Made by a program: the position numbers and the translations under genes. Below are positions 822-36,757 of a stretch of 64,000 nt of DNA, in pieces. Each line of letters begins with the position of its first letter. Within the stretch, counting starts at the first letter, position 1. The stretch is from Bacillota bacterium (GTDB taxonomy: Bacteria > Bacillota > Dethiobacteria > DTU022): positions 2,107-66,106 of the forward strand of contig JAHYJM010000002.1 in the NCBI GenBank assembly GCA_019428945.1, read 5' to 3'. The notes below the pieces were generated by a model. That model was not told the origin of the DNA. It saw only the letters and a list, made by a program, of their open reading frames with translations, and made no database searches.

Positions 822-1832
822 TTATTCATAACGAATACGTGGATCCAGGTAGGCATAGAAAAGATCAACCACAATATTTATTGCAATAAAAGCGAATGCA
901 ACAAAAAAAACTACCCCCTGTACAACAGGGTAGTCACGAACACTAATAGCGGTTACCAAAAGCCGACCAATACCAGGCCAGGAAAAAACAGTCTCGGTCA
1001 GAATAGCACCACCCATCAGTTTAGCCAACTGCAGCCCAATCACAGTTACTACTGGAATCATGGCATTTTTCAATGCATGCGTGAACACTACTTTATTCTC
1101 CCGCACACCTTTTGCCCGTGCAGTCCGAATATAATCTTCGCTGAGAACATCAAGCATACTCGAGCGGGTAACCCTGACAATAAGAGCCAGCGAAACTGTA
1201 GCAAGAGAAAACGCAGGCAAAGCGAGATGCTTAAGGGCATCCCAAAAATAACTAATGTTACCGGCGAAAAGAGCATCAACCAGGTAAAGTCCGGTCACCT
1301 GGGGAATCGCAATACCCATCGCTAATCGCCCTGAAACCGGAAGCCAGCCAAGTATAACTGAAAAGAAAAAAATGAGCATCATTCCCAGCCAAAATATTGG
1401 AATTGATACCCCAAGCAATGAAAACCCGATCATTGAATAATCGATTGTTGTATTTCTGTATCGCGCAGCGCTTACCCCAAAAATTATCCCAAATACCACT
1501 GCTATAAATAAAGCAACCACTGTTAACTCCACAGTGGCCGGCAACCTGCTCATTATCTCCTCAATAACGGGTTGATTACTTCTGATTGAAATACCGAAAT
1601 CACCCTTAACAGCATTTGAAAACCAATTCCAGTATTGAATATGCAGGGGTTGGTTAAGCCCGAGTCTCTCTTCCAGGGCAAGCCGTGAAGCATCTGTTAC
1701 TCTGTCGCCCAACATGATATCAACCGGATCACCGGGAATCATATGAATCAACAAAAACACAATTATGCTCACACCAATTAGTGTTGGCAGGGTAAGAGCA
1801 AGTCTTTTTATGAAATATTTATATAATGCCAT
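822..1832 (-). CDS. ABC transporter permease, OppB/DppB family (oligopeptide or dipeptide).
   Basis: 336 aa, MALYKYFIKRLALTLPTLIGVSIIVFLLIHMIPGDPVDIMLG...YIRTARAKGVRENKVVFTHALKNA. These are canonical DppB/OppB motifs and the protein has 6 TM helices. Confidence 0.85.
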   Translation of the reverse strand: MALYKYFIKRLALTLPTLIGVSIIVFLLIHMIPGDPVDIMLGDRVTDASRLALEERLGLNQPLHIQYWNWFSNAVKGDFGISIRSNQPVIEEIMSRLPATVELTVVALFIAVVFGIIFGVSAARYRNTTIDYSMIGFSLLGVSIPIFWLGMMLIFFFSVILGWLPVSGRLAMGIAIPQVTGLYLVDALFAGNISYFWDALKHLALPAFSLATVSLALIVRVTRSSMLDVLSEDYIRTARAKGVRENKVVFTHALKNAMIPVVTVIGLQLAKLMGGAILTETVFSWPGIGRLLVTAISVRDYPVVQGVVFFVAFAFIAINIVVDLFYAYLDPRIRYE

Positions 1833-1965
1833 TCGCGCCCACCTTCATAAGAGTTGAGTGCGTGAAGAAAAAAGAAACTTTTCATACAATATAACATAAT
1901 GATGTAAATATTTCAACATATGTTTTATGAAATATTTATTACATAATTTAAGTATAGTCGTCTCA

Positions 1966-2010
1966 CGAGTAACTCAAAAAGGTGTCTGACACAAATTTGA
2001 GTTATTTTAC
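1966..2010. repeat. Copy A of a ~42 bp palindromic intergenic element (TAACTCAAA-N-GTGTCTGACAC-N-AATTTGAGTTATTTT).
   Basis: The sequence taactcaaaaaggtgtctgacacaaatttgagttatttt overlaps the stop of the aldolase gene. A nearly identical element occurs at 35923-35968. Confidence 0.5.
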
Positions 2011-3279
2011 AGAGGTTGCTTTTTTCGAATAGCGTTTGAGGTAAATATAGCGCATCAGGAGACATTCATGGGGTTTAATTGGTTTTCCCAGTTCAAAATA
2101 TTTCGAGGCAATTACAGCTCTGCAGTTCTTCTCGAAGATCATTACAGCAGCAGTGGCATCAGTGATATTGGGGCCGCAGCAGAGAGCGCCGTTACCGGAT
2201 ATAATTACTGCGTCACGGCCCTTCATCTTGCTGAGAATCTCTCCGGCCACCTTTTCAGGAGCGGCTGTGTAGTCGGGAAAAGCTATCCTGGAATTTATTC
2301 CGATAATCTGGGCGAAATCATCAACCATGGGATATATGTTTCTCCCGGCCCGGGAAATAGCTAAAACATCAGGTAGCACAGTGTGCACTATTGCGCCCAG
2401 ATCATTTCGTTTATTGTAGATCTCGCGGTGAATGGCTGCTGCATTGCTTTCTGCAATATTGTTTAAATCAGGTTTATCAGGGCAAAGCCTGACTGCATCT
2501 ATTGGTTCAGAGTTATACTTTCCGGATGCTTTAGTAACTCCATCTGCGCGATAAAAAGCTATTCTGTTACCTTCCTTAACACTATCGTACAAAGGGATAT
2601 TTACCTGTGAACTGGTTGTAAATCCCGGTTTCCCATAACGGCTTACATAGTAATCGCTCATCTCAACGGGATCAAAACTGCTGCTGCCGCTAACCTCCAG
2701 ATAACGGTTTACCAGGTAATCGTAACAGATCTTCTCTGTCGTTAATGCAACTTTGAATGCTTCATTATCGTCCCCGCCAAGGCATAAAGCGCCGTGAGCT
2801 TTCAACAGGAAGGCTTTAATATCGGATGCAGCAGCAAGGACCGCTGCAAAATTTCTTATTAGAGCCTTTGTCCCCGGCAAGCCATAAGGGACAGATATAA
2901 TATTCCCACCCAACAAATCTAATGCTTCCGAAGATATAACATTTATATCTAGCCCAAGGGGACTGAGAGCTGATGCATTAAGCTGATGGGTATGGATAAT
3001 AAAATTAATATCTTTACGCTGGCTGTAAGCAGCTGCATGGACTCCTTTTTCTGAGGAAGGTTCAATGCCTCCCTTATAGCTTCCATCATTAATGTTTACT
3101 GTAACAATTTCTTGAGGCGTCAGGGTTTCATAAGCGCGTCCGCTGGGCGTAATAACAAACCTGTTATGATCTATCCGACAGCTGACATTACCCCAGGTAC
3201 GGGCAATTAGTCCTGTTTCAATCAACCTTTTCCCGGCCAGAATAACTTTTTCTTTCGCCTCGCATATATCCATCTTCAT
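2002..3279 (-). CDS. Class II aldolase/adducin family protein with two tandem aldolase-II domains (FucA/AraD-like).
   Basis: 425 aa. The N-terminal half (LAGKRLIETGLIARTWGNVSCR...FIIHTHQLNASALS) and the C-terminal half (AIHREIYNKRNDLGAIVHTVLPDVLAISRAG...) each resemble a ~200 aa class II aldolase domain. Confidence 0.65.
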   Translation of the reverse strand: MKMDICEAKEKVILAGKRLIETGLIARTWGNVSCRIDHNRFVITPSGRAYETLTPQEIVTVNINDGSYKGGIEPSSEKGVHAAAYSQRKDINFIIHTHQLNASALSPLGLDINVISSEALDLLGGNIISVPYGLPGTKALIRNFAAVLAAASDIKAFLLKAHGALCLGGDDNEAFKVALTTEKICYDYLVNRYLEVSGSSSFDPVEMSDYYVSRYGKPGFTTSSQVNIPLYDSVKEGNRIAFYRADGVTKASGKYNSEPIDAVRLCPDKPDLNNIAESNAAAIHREIYNKRNDLGAIVHTVLPDVLAISRAGRNIYPMVDDFAQIIGINSRIAFPDYTAAPEKVAGEILSKMKGRDAVIISGNGALCCGPNITDATAAVMIFEKNCRAVIASKYFELGKPIKPHECLLMRYIYLKRYSKKATSVK

Positions 3280-3680
3280 CGCTCTTTCCTCATAACATAT
3301 AGAGTATAAATCAGTTGTTATCCAGTCAGCTCTTCAAGCTGCCTGTTTACAAGTTTACCCTGGTCTGAGGCAAAATTTAATCTTGCTTATATCAGTTTAC
3401 AGGATCCAATCCTTTTTGTGGAGTAAAATAAAGGAATTTAGTCCCTTTTGTTTAATTATTTCTATAATTAACGAAAAGAGACGATGTTTGTACCGGATTC
3501 AGCGAATATATTTGCTGATTACGATTTAGACTAAATAGGGTGAAGCATCCAGCTGTTTGGTGCCAAAATGCAAGCTCTGATTACCGTTGACAATAATGGG
3601 CAGCACCTCTGACAGGCTATGATATATATATGGATCTGTGCCGGGATTAAAATACAATAAAAAATGAAAAAGGTGATCTC

Positions 3681-9628: not shown

Positions 9629-9658
9629 TTGACATCACTCATAGACAATTAATATAAT
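9629..9658 (+). promoter_or_regulatory. Sigma-A-type promoter for the mod operon.
   Basis: TTGACA (9629-9634), an 18 bp spacer, then TATAAT (9653-9658). Confidence 0.45.
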
Positions 9659-9673
9659 TGATTTGTGCTAATG

Positions 9674-9737
9674 CCCTTTCCCTGCAGGAAAGGGTTCATT
9701 TACCCGGGCGTTATACTTATAAAAGTATAACGCCCGG
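9674..9737 (+). promoter_or_regulatory. Leader hairpin (9674-9694) followed by a perfect ModE-operator-like palindrome (9703-9737) upstream of the mod operon.
   Basis: The hairpin is ccctttcc-ctgca-ggaaaggg. The palindrome is cccgggCGTTATACTT-ataa-AAGTATAACGcccgg, which resembles the E. coli ModE site CGTTATAT..ATATAACG. Confidence 0.45.
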
Positions 9738-18123: not shown

Positions 18124-18705
18124 ATGGCCACTGACAGAAATGAGACCAAAACCAAAATACTGGAAACTGCAGCGGGAATAATCGGAAAAGAACGTAATCT
18201 GAACCTGACTATCAGGGAAATTGCCACCAGGGCAGACGTTAACATAGCTTCAGTCAACTATCATTTTGGCTCGAAGGAAAAACTGCTTGAAGAAGTTGAA
18301 ATGCTGCTCATAGAAAAAATCCGTCATATCTATACCAATATTCACAATTATGACCAATCAACAAGAGAAAGATTGATCAACTGGGCAGACAGCCTGATTA
18401 AGCACCTGATTGATTACCCTGGTATTATTTATCTTATAGGAACACAGGTTTTGGAAAAAGAGAATACGGGCCTTAGCATCTATTTACATCTTCTCGAAAC
18501 AGATATCAAACCGCTAGTAAAAAAGCTAACCGGCGATACAGATGAAACTGCAGTCAGTTATAAAGTATTACAACTGATATCGGGCATTGTATATCCTGTA
18601 TTGATCTATTCCAGCAACAATGAAACAGCCGTTATAAACATCGGTGACACAGTTATCCGAGGAAAATATGTAACATCGCTAGTCAACAGCATCGAAAAAG
18701 GTTAG
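18124..18705 (+). CDS. TetR/AcrR family transcriptional regulator.
   Basis: 193 aa. The N-terminal HTH is KILETAAGIIGKERNLNLTIREIATRADVNIASVNYHFGSKEKLL. Confidence 0.85.
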   Translation: MATDRNETKTKILETAAGIIGKERNLNLTIREIATRADVNIASVNYHFGSKEKLLEEVEMLLIEKIRHIYTNIHNYDQSTRERLINWADSLIKHLIDYPGIIYLIGTQVLEKENTGLSIYLHLLETDIKPLVKKLTGDTDETAVSYKVLQLISGIVYPVLIYSSNNETAVINIGDTVIRGKYVTSLVNSIEKG

Positions 18706-27929: not shown

Positions 27930-27957
27930 AAAGCCGCCTGAATAAAGGCGGCTTTTT
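27930..27957. terminator. Bidirectional rho-independent terminator. It overlaps the apbE stop codon.
   Basis: aaagccgcc-tgaataaa-ggcggcttttt. Confidence 0.7.
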
Positions 27958-34478: not shown

Positions 34479-35918
34479 ATGTCAACTTTTTACGAGTTTG
34501 GAATAAGTGAAGAATTAATCAGAGCTACCACTGGTATGGGGTTTGAAGAGGCTACAGCAATTCAGGAACTGGCTATTCCTATCGCCATGGAAGGCCGTGA
34601 TATAATCGGGCAGGCTCAGACAGGCACCGGTAAAACCGCTGCTTTCGGTATTCCGATGATTGAGAGATGTCGTCCAGAACAAGGTCCTGTTCAGGGGCTT
34701 GTTATAACCCCGACAAGAGAACTGGCCGTTCAGGTTGCCGAAGAGCTGAATACTCTGGGCCAGTATAAGAAAATAAAGTCTCTTCCTATATATGGCGGGC
34801 AGGAGATCGTACGTCAGATAAAAGCGCTGAAAAACAAACCACAGATAATTGTGGCTACCCCGGGCCGCCTGATGGATCACATGCGCAGAAAGCTTATTCG
34901 GCTGCAAAATCTTTCGGTTGTTGTGCTGGACGAAGCTGATGAAATGCTGAACATGGGATTCAGGGAAGATATCGAAGATATCCTGTCCGAAGCGCCCACT
35001 GACAGGCATACAATGCTTTTTTCTGCAACAATGCCGCAGCCGATTCAGGATTTGGCTCGCCGGTACATGCGTGAACCTGAGTTCATCAGGATCAAAACCA
35101 AAGAAATTACCGTACCAAACACTGAACAGCACTATTACCAGGTACATGAAAGAGAAAAATTTGACGCCCTGTGTCGATTGCTCGACCTTCATTCACCTGA
35201 AGCAGCGATAATATTTGCCCGAACTAAACGCAGGGTCGATGAAATACTGGAAGCCCTGAGTAAACGAGGCTACTCGGCTGAAGCTATCCATGGAGATTTA
35301 ACCCAATCAAAGAGAGACAGTGTAATGCGCAAGTTTAAAAACGGGGTGACGGAAATACTTGTCGCAACTGATGTGGCAGCCCGGGGTCTTGATATCGGCT
35401 CGGTTACCCATGTATATAATTTTGATATCCCCCAGGATCCTGACAGCTATGTACACCGAATCGGCCGTACCGGCAGAGTCGGCCGTGCCGGCATGGCTAC
35501 AACTTTTGTGCTGCCCCGCGAACTTGATCACCTCGAACTAATCGAGCGCACTATCAGAAGAAAAATAGTACGTCAATCGGTACCGACCCTGGACGAAACA
35601 ATCAGAGGCCAGCAGCGTCTCACCGCAGAGAAACTGCTTCAGGTTATTGAAGAAGGTGAACATCAGCTTTATAAGGAAGCAGCACGTGAATTGCTGGAAA
35701 GCGCTTCTGCTTCGTCGCTTCTGGCAGCAGCGCTTAAGCTGCTTACCAAGGAGCCCGACCTGACTCCTGTCAGCATTACAGCCGACCAGAACTGGTCGCC
35801 CAAGAAAAGACCGATAGCAAGACAGGAACGCGGCAGTTACCGCCAAAAACAGGCGGGGAGCAAAAGCCGAGGAGGATACAAGGGACACAGTAAAAGCCGA
35901 AAATATACGAATAAATGA
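34479..35918 (+). CDS. cshA: DEAD-box ATP-dependent RNA helicase (CshA/DeaD-like) with a basic RG/K-rich C-terminal tail.
   Basis: 479 aa. The Q-motif is GFEEATAIQ, motif I is AQTGTGKT, motif II is DEAD (VLDEADEML), and SAT and HRIGRTGR are also present. Confidence 0.9.
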
Positions 35919-35922
35919 TCAA

Positions 35923-35968
35923 ATAACTCAAATTAGTGTCTGACACCAATTTGAGTTATTTTGAAACA
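35923..35968. repeat. Copy B of the ~42 bp palindromic element, immediately upstream of the enoyl-CoA hydratase gene.
   Basis: aaataactcaaattagtgtctgacaccaatttgagttatttt is a 42 bp palindrome with one mismatch, centred on TCTGA. Confidence 0.5.
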
Positions 35969-35980
35969 GGGGGAAGATTT

Positions 35981-36757
35981 ATGACTGATAACAAGCCGGT
36001 CATATTAAGTGTCAAAGATACGATAGCCACCGTAACTCTGAACCGGCCCGAAAAGGCCAATGCTTTTGACGGTGAAATGTGGATAGCCCTGGAAGAAACC
36101 GCAAATATGATTAAACTCGATCCGAAAATAAAAGTTGTTATTCTCACCGGCTCGGGAAAATCATTTTGTGGGGGACTTGATATCAACAAGGCTCTTACTG
36201 AAGGGATCTTTCTTGGAGACCGAACCTTCAGACCCGGCTTTGAAAGTCTGCAATATGTAAGCAGGGTATTTACAATGTTCGAACAGTTACCTGTCCCGGT
36301 AATAGCAGCTGTAAATGGAGGCTGCATCGGACTGGGCTTTGAGCTGGCACTTGCCTGCGATATAAGGCTGGCTTCAGACGATGCCATTTTTTCCATACCT
36401 GAAGTGACCTTTGGCCTAGTGCCCGACTGCGGCGGAACTCAGCGTCTGCCGCGACTGATAGGACCGGCAATGGCCAAAGAACTTATCTTTACCGGACGCC
36501 GGATTGACGCGGCCGAAGCTCTCAGGATCAAACTTGTAAATCACCTCTACCCTGCCGGGGAACTGCTTGACGAAGCAGAAAATTTAGCGGCAGAGATTGC
36601 AGCAAATCCTGTTGAGGCCGTGCAGGCTTCAAAGCGCTGCCTGAACGTGTCAATGAACAGCACTCTTGAAACAGGCTTGCAATTTGAGACAGCTTCGGCT
36701 GAAACAGTTCTGGGTGAAAAAGTAAAAGAGCTTATCCATTCAGAAAGTGCAAAATAA
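35981..36757 (+). CDS. Enoyl-CoA hydratase/isomerase (crotonase family).
   Basis: ATVTLNRPEKANAFDGEMWIALEE...VILTGSGKSFCGGLDI is the crotonase signature. The ORF track starts at 35936. A GGGGGAAG RBS favours the ATG at 35981 (MTDNKP...). Confidence 0.8.
   Translation: MTDNKPVILSVKDTIATVTLNRPEKANAFDGEMWIALEETANMIKLDPKIKVVILTGSGKSFCGGLDINKALTEGIFLGDRTFRPGFESLQYVSRVFTMFEQLPVPVIAAVNGGCIGLGFELALACDIRLASDDAIFSIPEVTFGLVPDCGGTQRLPRLIGPAMAKELIFTGRRIDAAEALRIKLVNHLYPAGELLDEAENLAAEIAANPVEAVQASKRCLNVSMNSTLETGLQFETASAETVLGEKVKELIHSESAK

What the first reader, a model, noticed from the sequence alone, without database searches (positions are those of the whole stretch)
1966..2010. A conserved ~42 bp near-perfect palindrome occurs at two unrelated intergenic sites (second copy at 35923-35968)
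Both loci carry TAACTCAAA(tt/aa)(a/g)GTGTCTGACAC(c/a)AATTTGAGTTATTTT. Copy B is a 42 bp palindrome with a single mismatch. Copy A keeps the outer 9 bp arms and the GTGTC-T-GACAC core. The element sits in the same orientation (TTATTTT on the + strand) at both sites, even though the flanking genes run on opposite strands. Copy A overlaps the stop of the minus-strand aldolase gene, upstream of opp. Copy B lies between cshA and the enoyl-CoA hydratase gene. This argues against a plain intrinsic terminator. The stems are AT-rich, and no U-tract follows on the transcribed strand at copy A. It fits better with a dispersed palindromic repeat (REP/BIME-like) or a long operator for a dimeric regulator.
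Basis: seen in the sequence. Interest (0 to 1): 0.55.

Follow-up and report, generated by a model that had tools for sequence, protein, structure and literature searches.

The report
Small dispersed hairpin repeat at stop codons
The two near-identical 40-43 bp palindromes are real copies of a small family of hairpin-forming repeats that sit right at the stop codons of unrelated genes in an uncultured Dethiobacteria-type bacterium; this resembles the well-known REP elements of other bacteria, so it is a modest new example, not a new kind of system.

Summary
Copy A (1970-2009) and copy B (35921-35963) share 35 of 39 bases, where chance predicts no such match.

They belong to a small family:
- A third, non-orthologous site lies between a DUF2905 gene and queA in a conspecific MAG.
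- All three sites recur at the same positions in relatives.
- Site B is empty at the syntenic cshA-ECH junction of a more distant relative.
- Site A carries an exact 38-nt tandem duplication in a conspecific MAG.

Every copy starts between 3 nt inside and 5 nt after the stop codon of the upstream gene. Two copies lie 18-21 nt upstream of the next co-directional gene, with no promoter in between.

Substitutions between orthologous copies mostly keep the stem. There are three double changes and two G·U pairs on the gene-sense strand, but the statistics are weak.

There is no promoter geometry, no common regulon and no usable U-tract at copy A. An operator and a plain terminator are therefore both poor fits.

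Best reading: a REP-like dispersed palindromic element acting as an mRNA 3'/intercistronic hairpin. Membership of the REP/RAYT family is not shown: there is no GTAG, the sampled density is low, and no transposase was seen.

Novelty is modest.

The parts
1970..2009 (.). Copy A of the palindromic element. Arms are at 1970-1978 and 1996-2004, and the core GTGTCTGACAC is at 1982-1992. Read on the minus (gene-sense) strand it is AAAATAACTCAAATTTGTGTCAGACACCTTTTTGAGTTA.
   Evidence: RNA fold -13.3 (minus strand) and -17 (plus strand) kcal/mol
35921..35963 (.). Copy B of the palindromic element. It has 20-bp arms with one mismatch, and the core is at 35936-35946.
   Evidence: RNA fold -18.1 (plus strand) and -22.4 (minus strand) kcal/mol
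2002..3279 (-). Two-domain class II aldolase gene. Its TAA stop (2002-2004) is the first three paired bases of copy A on the sense strand.
822..1832 (-). oppB-like permease, the first gene of the opp cluster downstream of copy A. A promoter-like site (TTGAAA-17-TATATT) lies at 1916-1888 on the minus strand, 54 nt beyond the element.
34479..35918 (+). DEAD-box helicase (cshA-like). Its stop codon lies 2 nt before the extended stem of copy B.
35981..36757 (+). Enoyl-CoA hydratase. Its ATG lies 18 nt after copy B, with no room for a promoter in between.

Best explanation
Copies A and B belong to a small family of about 43-bp palindromic repeats that are dispersed around the chromosome of an uncultured Bacillota (Dethiobacteria-like) lineage.

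Anatomy: an 11-bp outer arm (AAATAACTCAA), a variable 4-nt spacer, an apical mini-palindrome (GTGTC-N-GACAC), a second 4-nt spacer, and the complementary arm.

Origin (inferred): copies arose by copy-and-paste or duplication of a common source sequence. They have since been inherited vertically, with occasional gain or loss and local tandem duplication.

Function (inferred): the copies act after transcription as a long AU-rich hairpin. The foot of the hairpin contains or abuts the stop codon of the upstream gene. Three roles are plausible:
- a 3' or intercistronic stem-loop that protects the upstream message from 3' exonucleases;
- partial attenuation of read-through into the next gene;
- interference with the terminating ribosome, because the hairpin lies within 15 nt of the stop codon, as shown for E. 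coli REPs.

It works like a REP element. It is not shown to be a member of the REP/RAYT family.
For: Shown:
1. The repeat is not a chance match.
2. There are at least three non-orthologous sites in one species. A and B are in the window. C lies between the DUF2905 stop and queA in the conspecific MAG GCA_033549225.1 (L134 8825-8867). That MAG is 97.9-99.8% identical to the window.
3. Each site is kept at the same position in relatives: A in L126 and L128, B in L133, C in L002.
4. Site B is empty in the syntenic cshA-ECH junction of L005, where the spacer is 21 nt against 62 nt in the window.
5. An exact 38-nt tandem duplication of the element is present at site A in the conspecific L132.
6. 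All copies start between -3 and +5 nt from a stop codon.
7. At sites B and C the next co-directional gene starts 18-21 nt downstream with no promoter in between.
8. Pairing is kept in 86% of cells, against at most 42% when the partner is slid. Three pairs change on both sides (C-G/G-C, A-U/U-A twice). Two G·U pairs occur on the gene-sense strand only.
9. At site C, 39 of 43 bases are identical between species that are 78% identical overall. All four differences fall in the spacers, and the neighbouring ruvB-DUF2905 spacer cannot be aligned.

From the literature: REPs are 35-40 nt imperfect hairpins that stabilise mRNA and can terminate transcription (PMC3479197). REPs within 15 nt of a stop codon stall ribosomes and lower translation (PMC12306157, citing Liang et al. 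2015).
Against: - Copy number is small. Only 2 sites were found in about 81 kb of unbiased sampling (window plus L132 and L135). The whole genome could not be scanned.
- The covariation statistics are weak: 60 of 500 shuffles reach the observed number of double changes.
- At site B the element differs from the L133 copy at 7 of 43 positions. This equals the divergence at third codon positions (16%), so constraint there is not demonstrated.
- No transposase or RAYT was seen among the window ORFs that were scanned. No target-site signature is visible.
- No expression or 3'-end data exist.
- Strict patterns found the family nowhere else: only one other genome among 185,579 species representatives, and nothing real in the JGI metagenomes.
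Confidence: 0.55

Rival explanations
1. These are ordinary intrinsic (Rho-independent, partly bidirectional) terminators. They look alike only because one terminator was duplicated to other gene ends.
For: - All copies lie directly after stop codons.
- The terminator scan flags copy B on the minus strand: 19 pairs plus a T-rich tail.
- The site A orthologues carry T-rich tails on the aldolase-sense strand: TTATTTTTTT in L126 and TTATTATTT in L128.
- In L004, cshA is followed by a canonical GC-rich terminator at the equivalent place.
Against: - Copy A has no U-tract on the transcribed strand; the tail is CUCGUGAGAC.
- Copies B and C have only 3-4 U. They lie 18-21 nt upstream of the next gene of a conserved operon-like pair, with no promoter, so efficient termination would silence ECH and queA.
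- The stems are AU-rich, with about 4-6 G-C pairs out of 17-20. Canonical terminators in the same window have GC-rich stems (27930-27955 and 50575-50540).
- A terminator still needs a copying mechanism to appear at three unlinked sites.
Confidence: 0.2
2. The element is a double-stranded DNA binding site for a sequence-specific dimeric or tetrameric protein. This could be an operator of a transcription factor or a site for a chromosome-organising protein. Arms and core would be contacted in successive major grooves.
For: - Arms and core are conserved as sequence blocks, while the 4-nt spacers vary. At site C, 0 of 33 arm and core positions changed against 4 of 8 spacer positions.
- The arm and core centres are about one helical turn apart.
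- The density of roughly one site per 30-40 kb resembles that of some nucleoid-protein sites.
Against: - Position relative to promoters is inconsistent. The centre of copy A is about 100 nt upstream of the predicted opp start. B and C lie between a stop codon and a ribosome-binding site.
- The flanking genes are unrelated: aldolase/opp, cshA/ECH, DUF2905/queA.
- Site B is absent from the syntenic junction in L005.
- In L133 the core lost its symmetry while the stem was kept by a compensatory A-T to T-A change. In L128 the arm changed C to G opposite a G to C change. These changes preserve pairing, not a half-site consensus.
- No regulator gene lies next to either copy. The nearest TetR gene is at 18124-18705.
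Confidence: 0.12
3. The copies are purely selfish relics: solo hairpin ends or miniature derivatives of an IS200/IS605-type or other mobile element, with no function for the host.
For: - Site B is present or absent between relatives.
- Site A has a tandem duplication polymorphism.
- Site B evolves at about the synonymous rate.
- No target-site duplication is visible, as expected for Y1 transposition.
Against: - Sites A and C are kept at the same position across species that are only 71-80% identical in coding DNA, while the adjacent spacer DNA is scrambled.
- The stem is repaired by compensatory changes.
- No parent element or transposase was found in about 115 kb of this species.
- There are no matches in the plasmid, phage or viral collections.
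Confidence: 0.1

Closest known systems
REP (repetitive extragenic palindromic) elements of Enterobacteria and Pseudomonas, with their RAYT/TnpA_REP transposase
   Same: - The element is a 35-45 nt imperfect palindrome.
- It is strictly extragenic and lies at the 3' ends of genes or between genes of an operon.
- It occurs in either orientation and is dispersed at unlinked sites.
- It is inherited vertically with occasional gain or loss.
- It sits next to stop codons, and REPs within 15 nt of a stop codon affect translation.
- It forms an RNA hairpin.
   Different: - There is no 5' GTAG at the foot of the hairpin.
- The stem is AU-rich, not GC-rich.
- Sampled density is low, about 1 per 30-40 kb, against hundreds of copies per genome.
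- No inverted REP pairs (BIME/REPIN) were seen; only single copies and one direct tandem duplication.
- No RAYT was identified.
- The host is a Bacillota (Dethiobacteria-like) lineage, not a proteobacterium.
Intrinsic bidirectional terminators
   Same: A hairpin directly after a stop codon, flanked by an A-tract and a T-tract (AAATAAC...GTTATTT). The orthologue in L126 has a U7 tail.
   Different: Three unlinked sites share the same sequence. The stem is AU-rich. Copy A lacks a U-tract. Copies B and C sit inside apparent operons, just before a ribosome-binding site.
Small non-autonomous repeats of Gram-positive and other bacteria (RUP and BOX of Streptococcus pneumoniae, Correia elements of Neisseria)
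   Same: They are intergenic dispersed repeats that fold into hairpins in transcripts and can change mRNA stability or termination (mentioned in PMC3479197).
   Different: Those elements are 100-150 bp or longer, with terminal inverted repeats and, for some, target-site duplications. This element is a single 43-bp palindrome with no recognisable duplication.

Membership tests
REP / BIME-RAYT system | Extragenic imperfect palindrome of about 35-40 nt that forms a stem-loop | tested here: met
   The palindrome is 40-43 nt with 1-3 mismatched positions, and all seven copies are intergenic.
REP / BIME-RAYT system | Conserved GTAG tetranucleotide 5' of the hairpin foot (PMC3479197) | tested here: not met
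   The flanks are CTCTGTAAAA, ATGATC and GACGCT. No copy has GTAG on either strand (alignment A3).
REP / BIME-RAYT system | High copy number, tens to hundreds per genome | tested here: inconclusive
   About 81 kb of unbiased sample held 2 sites, and one further site was found by a targeted look-up. The whole genome was not available. Its species representative was not hit in the genome-contig scan.
REP / BIME-RAYT system | A cognate Y1 (HUH) transposase gene (RAYT), typically flanked by REPs | tested here: inconclusive
   No Y1_Tnp or other transposase domain was found among the window ORFs scanned, nor in the precomputed Pfam lists for L132, L134 and L135. The rest of the genome was not seen.
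REP / BIME-RAYT system | Organisation as inverted REP pairs (BIME/REPIN) | tested here: not met
   All copies are single. The only multiple is a direct 38-nt tandem duplication in L132.
Intrinsic terminator | GC-rich stem followed at once by a U-tract on the transcribed strand | tested here: not met
   Copy A has the tail CUCGUGAGAC. Copy B has 4 U and copy C has 3 U. There are 4-6 G-C pairs per stem. Only the L126 orthologue has U7.
Intrinsic terminator | Lies at the end of a transcription unit | tested here: inconclusive
   Site A fits: a conserved opp promoter follows it. Sites B and C do not: the next gene starts 18-21 nt downstream with no promoter. No transcript data are available.
Operator of a dimeric transcription factor | Fixed position relative to a promoter, and a functionally coherent set of target genes | tested here: not met
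   Positions differ: about -106 at site A, and between a stop codon and a ribosome-binding site at B and C. The neighbouring genes are unrelated.
Operator of a dimeric transcription factor | Half-site sequence, not pairing, conserved in orthologues | tested here: not met
   In L133 and L128 the changes are paired across the two arms, or they break the core while keeping the stem. The site is absent in L005.
MITE | Terminal inverted repeats around an internal segment, flanked by a target-site duplication | tested here: not met
   The whole element is one palindrome. Comparing the filled site (window) with the empty site (L005) shows no direct repeat longer than 3 nt.
Known RNA family (Rfam 15) | Score at or above a family's gathering threshold | tested here: not met
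   No hit in the window at gathering thresholds. In E-value mode there were only sub-threshold hits to miRNA-precursor-like hairpins.

The most novel reading that the evidence does not exclude
The element may be the recognition hairpin of a dedicated, still unidentified sequence-specific partner in a Bacillota lineage that lacks classical REPs. The partner could be a domesticated HUH/Y1-type enzyme or an RNA-binding protein.

The conserved arm and core blocks would be read by that partner. Embedding the stop codon in the foot of the hairpin would couple translation termination of the upstream gene to mRNA processing or decay. This would be a REP-like system that evolved independently.
Probability: 0.15. 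Interest if true: 0.55.

Novelty: new member of a known kind. Interest (0 to 1): 0.3.

Why it matters
Short dispersed palindromes have been studied almost only in Proteobacteria. This family is compact and AU-rich, lacks GTAG, and occurs in an uncultured Dethiobacteria-like Bacillota lineage. Its stop codons are built into the foot of the hairpin.

If the hairpin modulates termination, mRNA stability or ribosome release, it would extend the REP paradigm to another phylum. It would also offer a simple natural cassette for tuning expression within an operon.

As it stands, the element is a minor annotation feature. Annotators should not call it an operator or a canonical terminator.

Tried and rejected
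- **Genome-contig scan** with GTGTCNGACACNNNTTTGAGTTA. It gave two hits. L002 is a real third site. L001 (a deltaproteobacterial MAG) matches only a half element and was treated as chance.
- **Two metagenome scans.** The strict pattern found nothing. The half-site pattern gave one hit inside a coding region with no second arm, which is chance.
- **Viral scans.** Core plus arm found nothing. Arms only gave 120+ hits, none with the core, so these are chance.
- **blastn of the element** against plasmids and phages gave nothing below E = 0.9.
- **Text search** for the core sequence in papers returned only unrelated primers.
- **Look-ups of the window's own proteins** (P0001, P0121) in the contig index failed. 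The conspecific MAG GCA_033549225.1 was used instead.
- **nhmmer profile search** for degenerate copies in all related loci (about 130 kb) found only the sites already known.
- **An extended asymmetric motif** (TTATTTT...CAGRGG) looked shared by A, B and C. At B and C it is explained by the ribosome-binding region, which is also present in the empty site of L005. At A it is explained by aldolase codons. It was rejected as part of the element.
- **Template-switch 'self-correction'** of the arm at 1970-1978 of copy A was considered. It was rejected because that arm is not the exact complement of the arm at 1996-2004.
- **A target-site duplication** was looked for at site B and none was found.

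Full report
**1. The observation**

Both sequences are present as described.
- Copy A, 1970-2008: TAACTCAAAAAGGTGTCTGACACAAATTTGAGTTATTTT.
- Copy B, 35921-35963: AAATAACTCAAATTAGTGTCTGACACCAATTTGAGTTATTT.

In the 39 shared columns, 35 bases are identical. A pattern of arms plus core hits only these two places in 64 kb, and none of 100 dinucleotide-preserving shuffles gave a match. The 11-nt core alone is also unique to them. A profile search finds no weaker copy in the window.

Copy B is a 20+20 palindrome with one A/C mismatch. Copy A keeps 9-bp arms and the 5-bp core around a 3x3 mismatch. As RNA, the stems fold at -13 to -22 kcal/mol, which is 2 to 7 standard deviations below shuffled sequence.

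**2. Gene context**

- Copy A lies at the 3' end of a two-domain class II aldolase gene (2002-3279, minus strand). On the sense strand, the TAA stop is the first three paired bases of the stem.
- A 169-nt spacer follows. It holds a good promoter-like site (TTGAAA-17-TATATT, 1916-1888), and then the oppB-like first gene of an opp cluster.
- Copy B starts 2-5 nt after the stop of a DEAD-box helicase (cshA-like) gene. It ends 18 nt before the ATG of an enoyl-CoA hydratase on the same strand. Only a ribosome-binding site fits in between.

**3. Source organism**

Exact protein matches place the window in an NCBI MAG annotated as Firmicutes/Bacillota bacterium (MBW6462660.1, on an 81-kb contig). Members of the same protein clusters at 90% identity or more are annotated 'Dethiobacteria bacterium'.

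A conspecific MAG, GCA_033549225.1, is 97.9-99.8% identical over the parts compared. I used it to look outside the window.

**4. A family, not a pair**

One scan of 185,579 species-representative genomes, using core plus one arm, returned a single true relative, L002 (Bacillota MAG S22.Bin020). There the element AAATAACTCAACTGAGTGTCAGACACAGTTTTGAGTTATTT lies between the stop of a small DUF2905 gene and queA, in a ruvCAB-DUF2905-queA-tgt cluster. This is a third, unrelated site.

The same site in the window's own species also carries the element (L134 8825-8867). One species therefore has at least three non-orthologous copies: A, B and C.

Unbiased sampling covers the window plus 8 kb to its left (L132) and 9.3 kb to its right (L135). 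It holds two sites in about 81 kb. This suggests tens of copies per genome, but that is an extrapolation. Metagenome, viral, plasmid and phage collections hold nothing related.

**5. Evolution at each site**

*Site A.* The element is present in a sister species (L128-L131, aldolase DNA 84% identical) and in an outgroup (L126, 71.5% identical).
- The sense-strand 5' arm and the core are almost unchanged.
- The 3' arm has drifted (TTTAACTTA in L126, TTT-ACTTA in L128) and is followed by T-rich tails.
- The spacer between the element and the opp promoter is scrambled, while the promoter and leader are nearly invariant.
- In L128 the 5' arm changed C to G opposite the G to C change in the 3' arm.
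- Both relatives have a G·U pair in the core that is valid only on the aldolase-sense RNA.
- In the conspecific L132, the element plus four bases (38 nt) is exactly duplicated in tandem. This is either a strain-level polymorphism or an assembly difference.

*Site B.* The conspecific L003 is identical.
- The sister species L133 keeps the element with 7 of 43 differences. This matches the 16% divergence at third codon positions of the neighbouring gene.
- The changes include a compensatory A-T to T-A swap and a mismatch turned into a pair, so L133 has a perfect 14-bp stem. Two changes destroy the symmetry of the core.
- A more distant relative with the same cshA-ECH synteny (L005, ECH 75% identical) has no element. 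Its spacer is 21 nt, against 62 nt in the window.
- In L004, cshA is followed by a canonical GC-rich terminator instead.

*Site C.* L134 and L002 are 78% identical overall. Within the element, 39 of 43 bases are identical and all four differences fall in the two 4-nt spacers. The neighbouring ruvB-DUF2905 spacer cannot be aligned.

*Across all seven distinct copies:*
- 86% of cells form standard pairs in the palindromic register, against at most 42% when the partner is slid.
- Three pairs carry changes on both sides.
- 60 of 500 shuffles do as well, so covariation is suggestive and not proven.

**6. What it is**

- *An operator is unlikely.* The three sites have no common promoter geometry. 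The neighbouring genes are unrelated. No regulator gene is adjacent. Site B is dispensable in a relative. The substitutions preserve pairing, not a half-site sequence.
- *A plain terminator is also a poor fit for the window copies.* Copy A has no U-tract on the transcribed strand. Copies B and C have 3-4 U and sit just before the ribosome-binding site of the next gene of a conserved gene pair. The stems are AU-rich, unlike the canonical terminators in the same window (27930-27955 and 50575-50540). The U7 tail in L126 shows that some copies may still terminate.
- *No Rfam family matches*.

The best-supported reading is a small family of dispersed, hairpin-forming palindromic repeats that behave like REP elements:
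- They are extragenic, lie at gene 3' ends or between cistrons, and occur in either orientation.
- They are inherited vertically with occasional gain, loss and local duplication.
- They probably act as RNA stem-loops.

REPs stabilise upstream mRNA and can terminate transcription (PMC3479197). When they lie within 15 nt of a stop codon, they stall ribosomes and lower translation (PMC12306157, citing Liang et al. 2015). Every copy here lies inside that distance, and at A and C the stop codon itself is in the stem. The function is inferred; nothing here measures RNA.

**7. Family membership**

The element meets the size, shape and location criteria of REPs. It fails on the 5' GTAG and on the BIME/REPIN pairing. 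Copy number and an associated RAYT could not be settled, because only about 115 kb of the species could be read. I therefore describe it as REP-like in behaviour and do not file it as a REP/RAYT member.

**8. Verdict**

The element is real, and modestly interesting as a new member of a known kind of element. The most novel reading not excluded is an independently evolved, partner-dependent hairpin system that couples stop codons to mRNA fate in a Bacillota lineage. I give that about 15%.

Noticed in passing
window 1806-1822 and 1923-1939; also window 1833-1925 compared with L126 2870-2963 and L128 10815-10910: An exact 17-nt direct repeat, TTTTATGAAATATTTAT, occurs twice, 117 nt apart. One copy lies inside the first codons of oppB. 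The other lies just upstream of the -35 of the opp promoter. In L126 and L128 the upstream copy is a perfect 18-bp palindrome, ATGAAATTTAAATTTCAT. The opp promoter and about 90 nt of leader are nearly invariant among three species whose coding DNA is only 71-84% identical. This suggests an unannotated operator pair or leader element. Rfam has no match.
   Followed up: partly
L132 11277-11352 (GCA_033549225.1, JAWSUH010000005.1): An exact 38-nt tandem duplication of copy A (AACTCAAATTTGTGTCAGACACCTTTTTGAGTTACTCG, twice) is present in a genome that is otherwise 99.8% identical to the window. There is no microhomology at the junction. It could be a real strain polymorphism or an assembly difference.
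   Followed up: partly
window 3441-3482 and 3494-3523: Two further imperfect palindromes (19-nt arms, 84% complementary) lie in the divergent intergenic region between the aldolase gene and the GlpD-like FAD oxidoreductase. They are candidate operators and are unrelated in sequence to the element studied.
   Followed up: no
window 9629-9737: A perfect consensus promoter (TTGACA-18-TATAAT, 9629-9658) is followed by a CCCTTTCCCTGCAGGAAAGGG hairpin. A perfect 15-bp inverted repeat, CCGGGCGTTATACTT-N4-AAGTATAACGCCCGG (9704-9737), comes next. All of this lies upstream of a molybdopterin-binding-domain gene and a mod-like ABC transporter. No Rfam family reaches threshold, so it may be an undescribed leader.
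   Followed up: no
L128 8913-10741 (Logan SRR22541067): In the sister species, the aldolase is called as only 246 aa, the C-terminal half. It is preceded by two short HSP70-like fragments, which suggests gene decay or rearrangement upstream of site A.
   Followed up: no
L005 6484-7933 (JGI 3300076001): The cshA-like gene is split into four ORFs by frameshifts. The homologous stop codon had to be inferred by alignment. This is probably sequencing error in that contig.
   Followed up: no
L001 7323-7388 (deltaproteobacterial MAG JABGOS010000104.1): AAAAAGTGTCGGACACTTTTTGGGG is followed 20 nt later by a near-repeat, AAAAATGTTGGACACTTTTTGGGG. It shares the GTGTC-N-GACAC core with the element studied but not the second arm. 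I judged it a chance hit.
   Followed up: partly
L134 8556-8573: A solitary AAATAACTC arm-like string lies in the ruvB-DUF2905 spacer, 250 nt upstream of site C. nhmmer gives E = 12, so it is not significant. It may be a decayed copy or chance.
   Followed up: no
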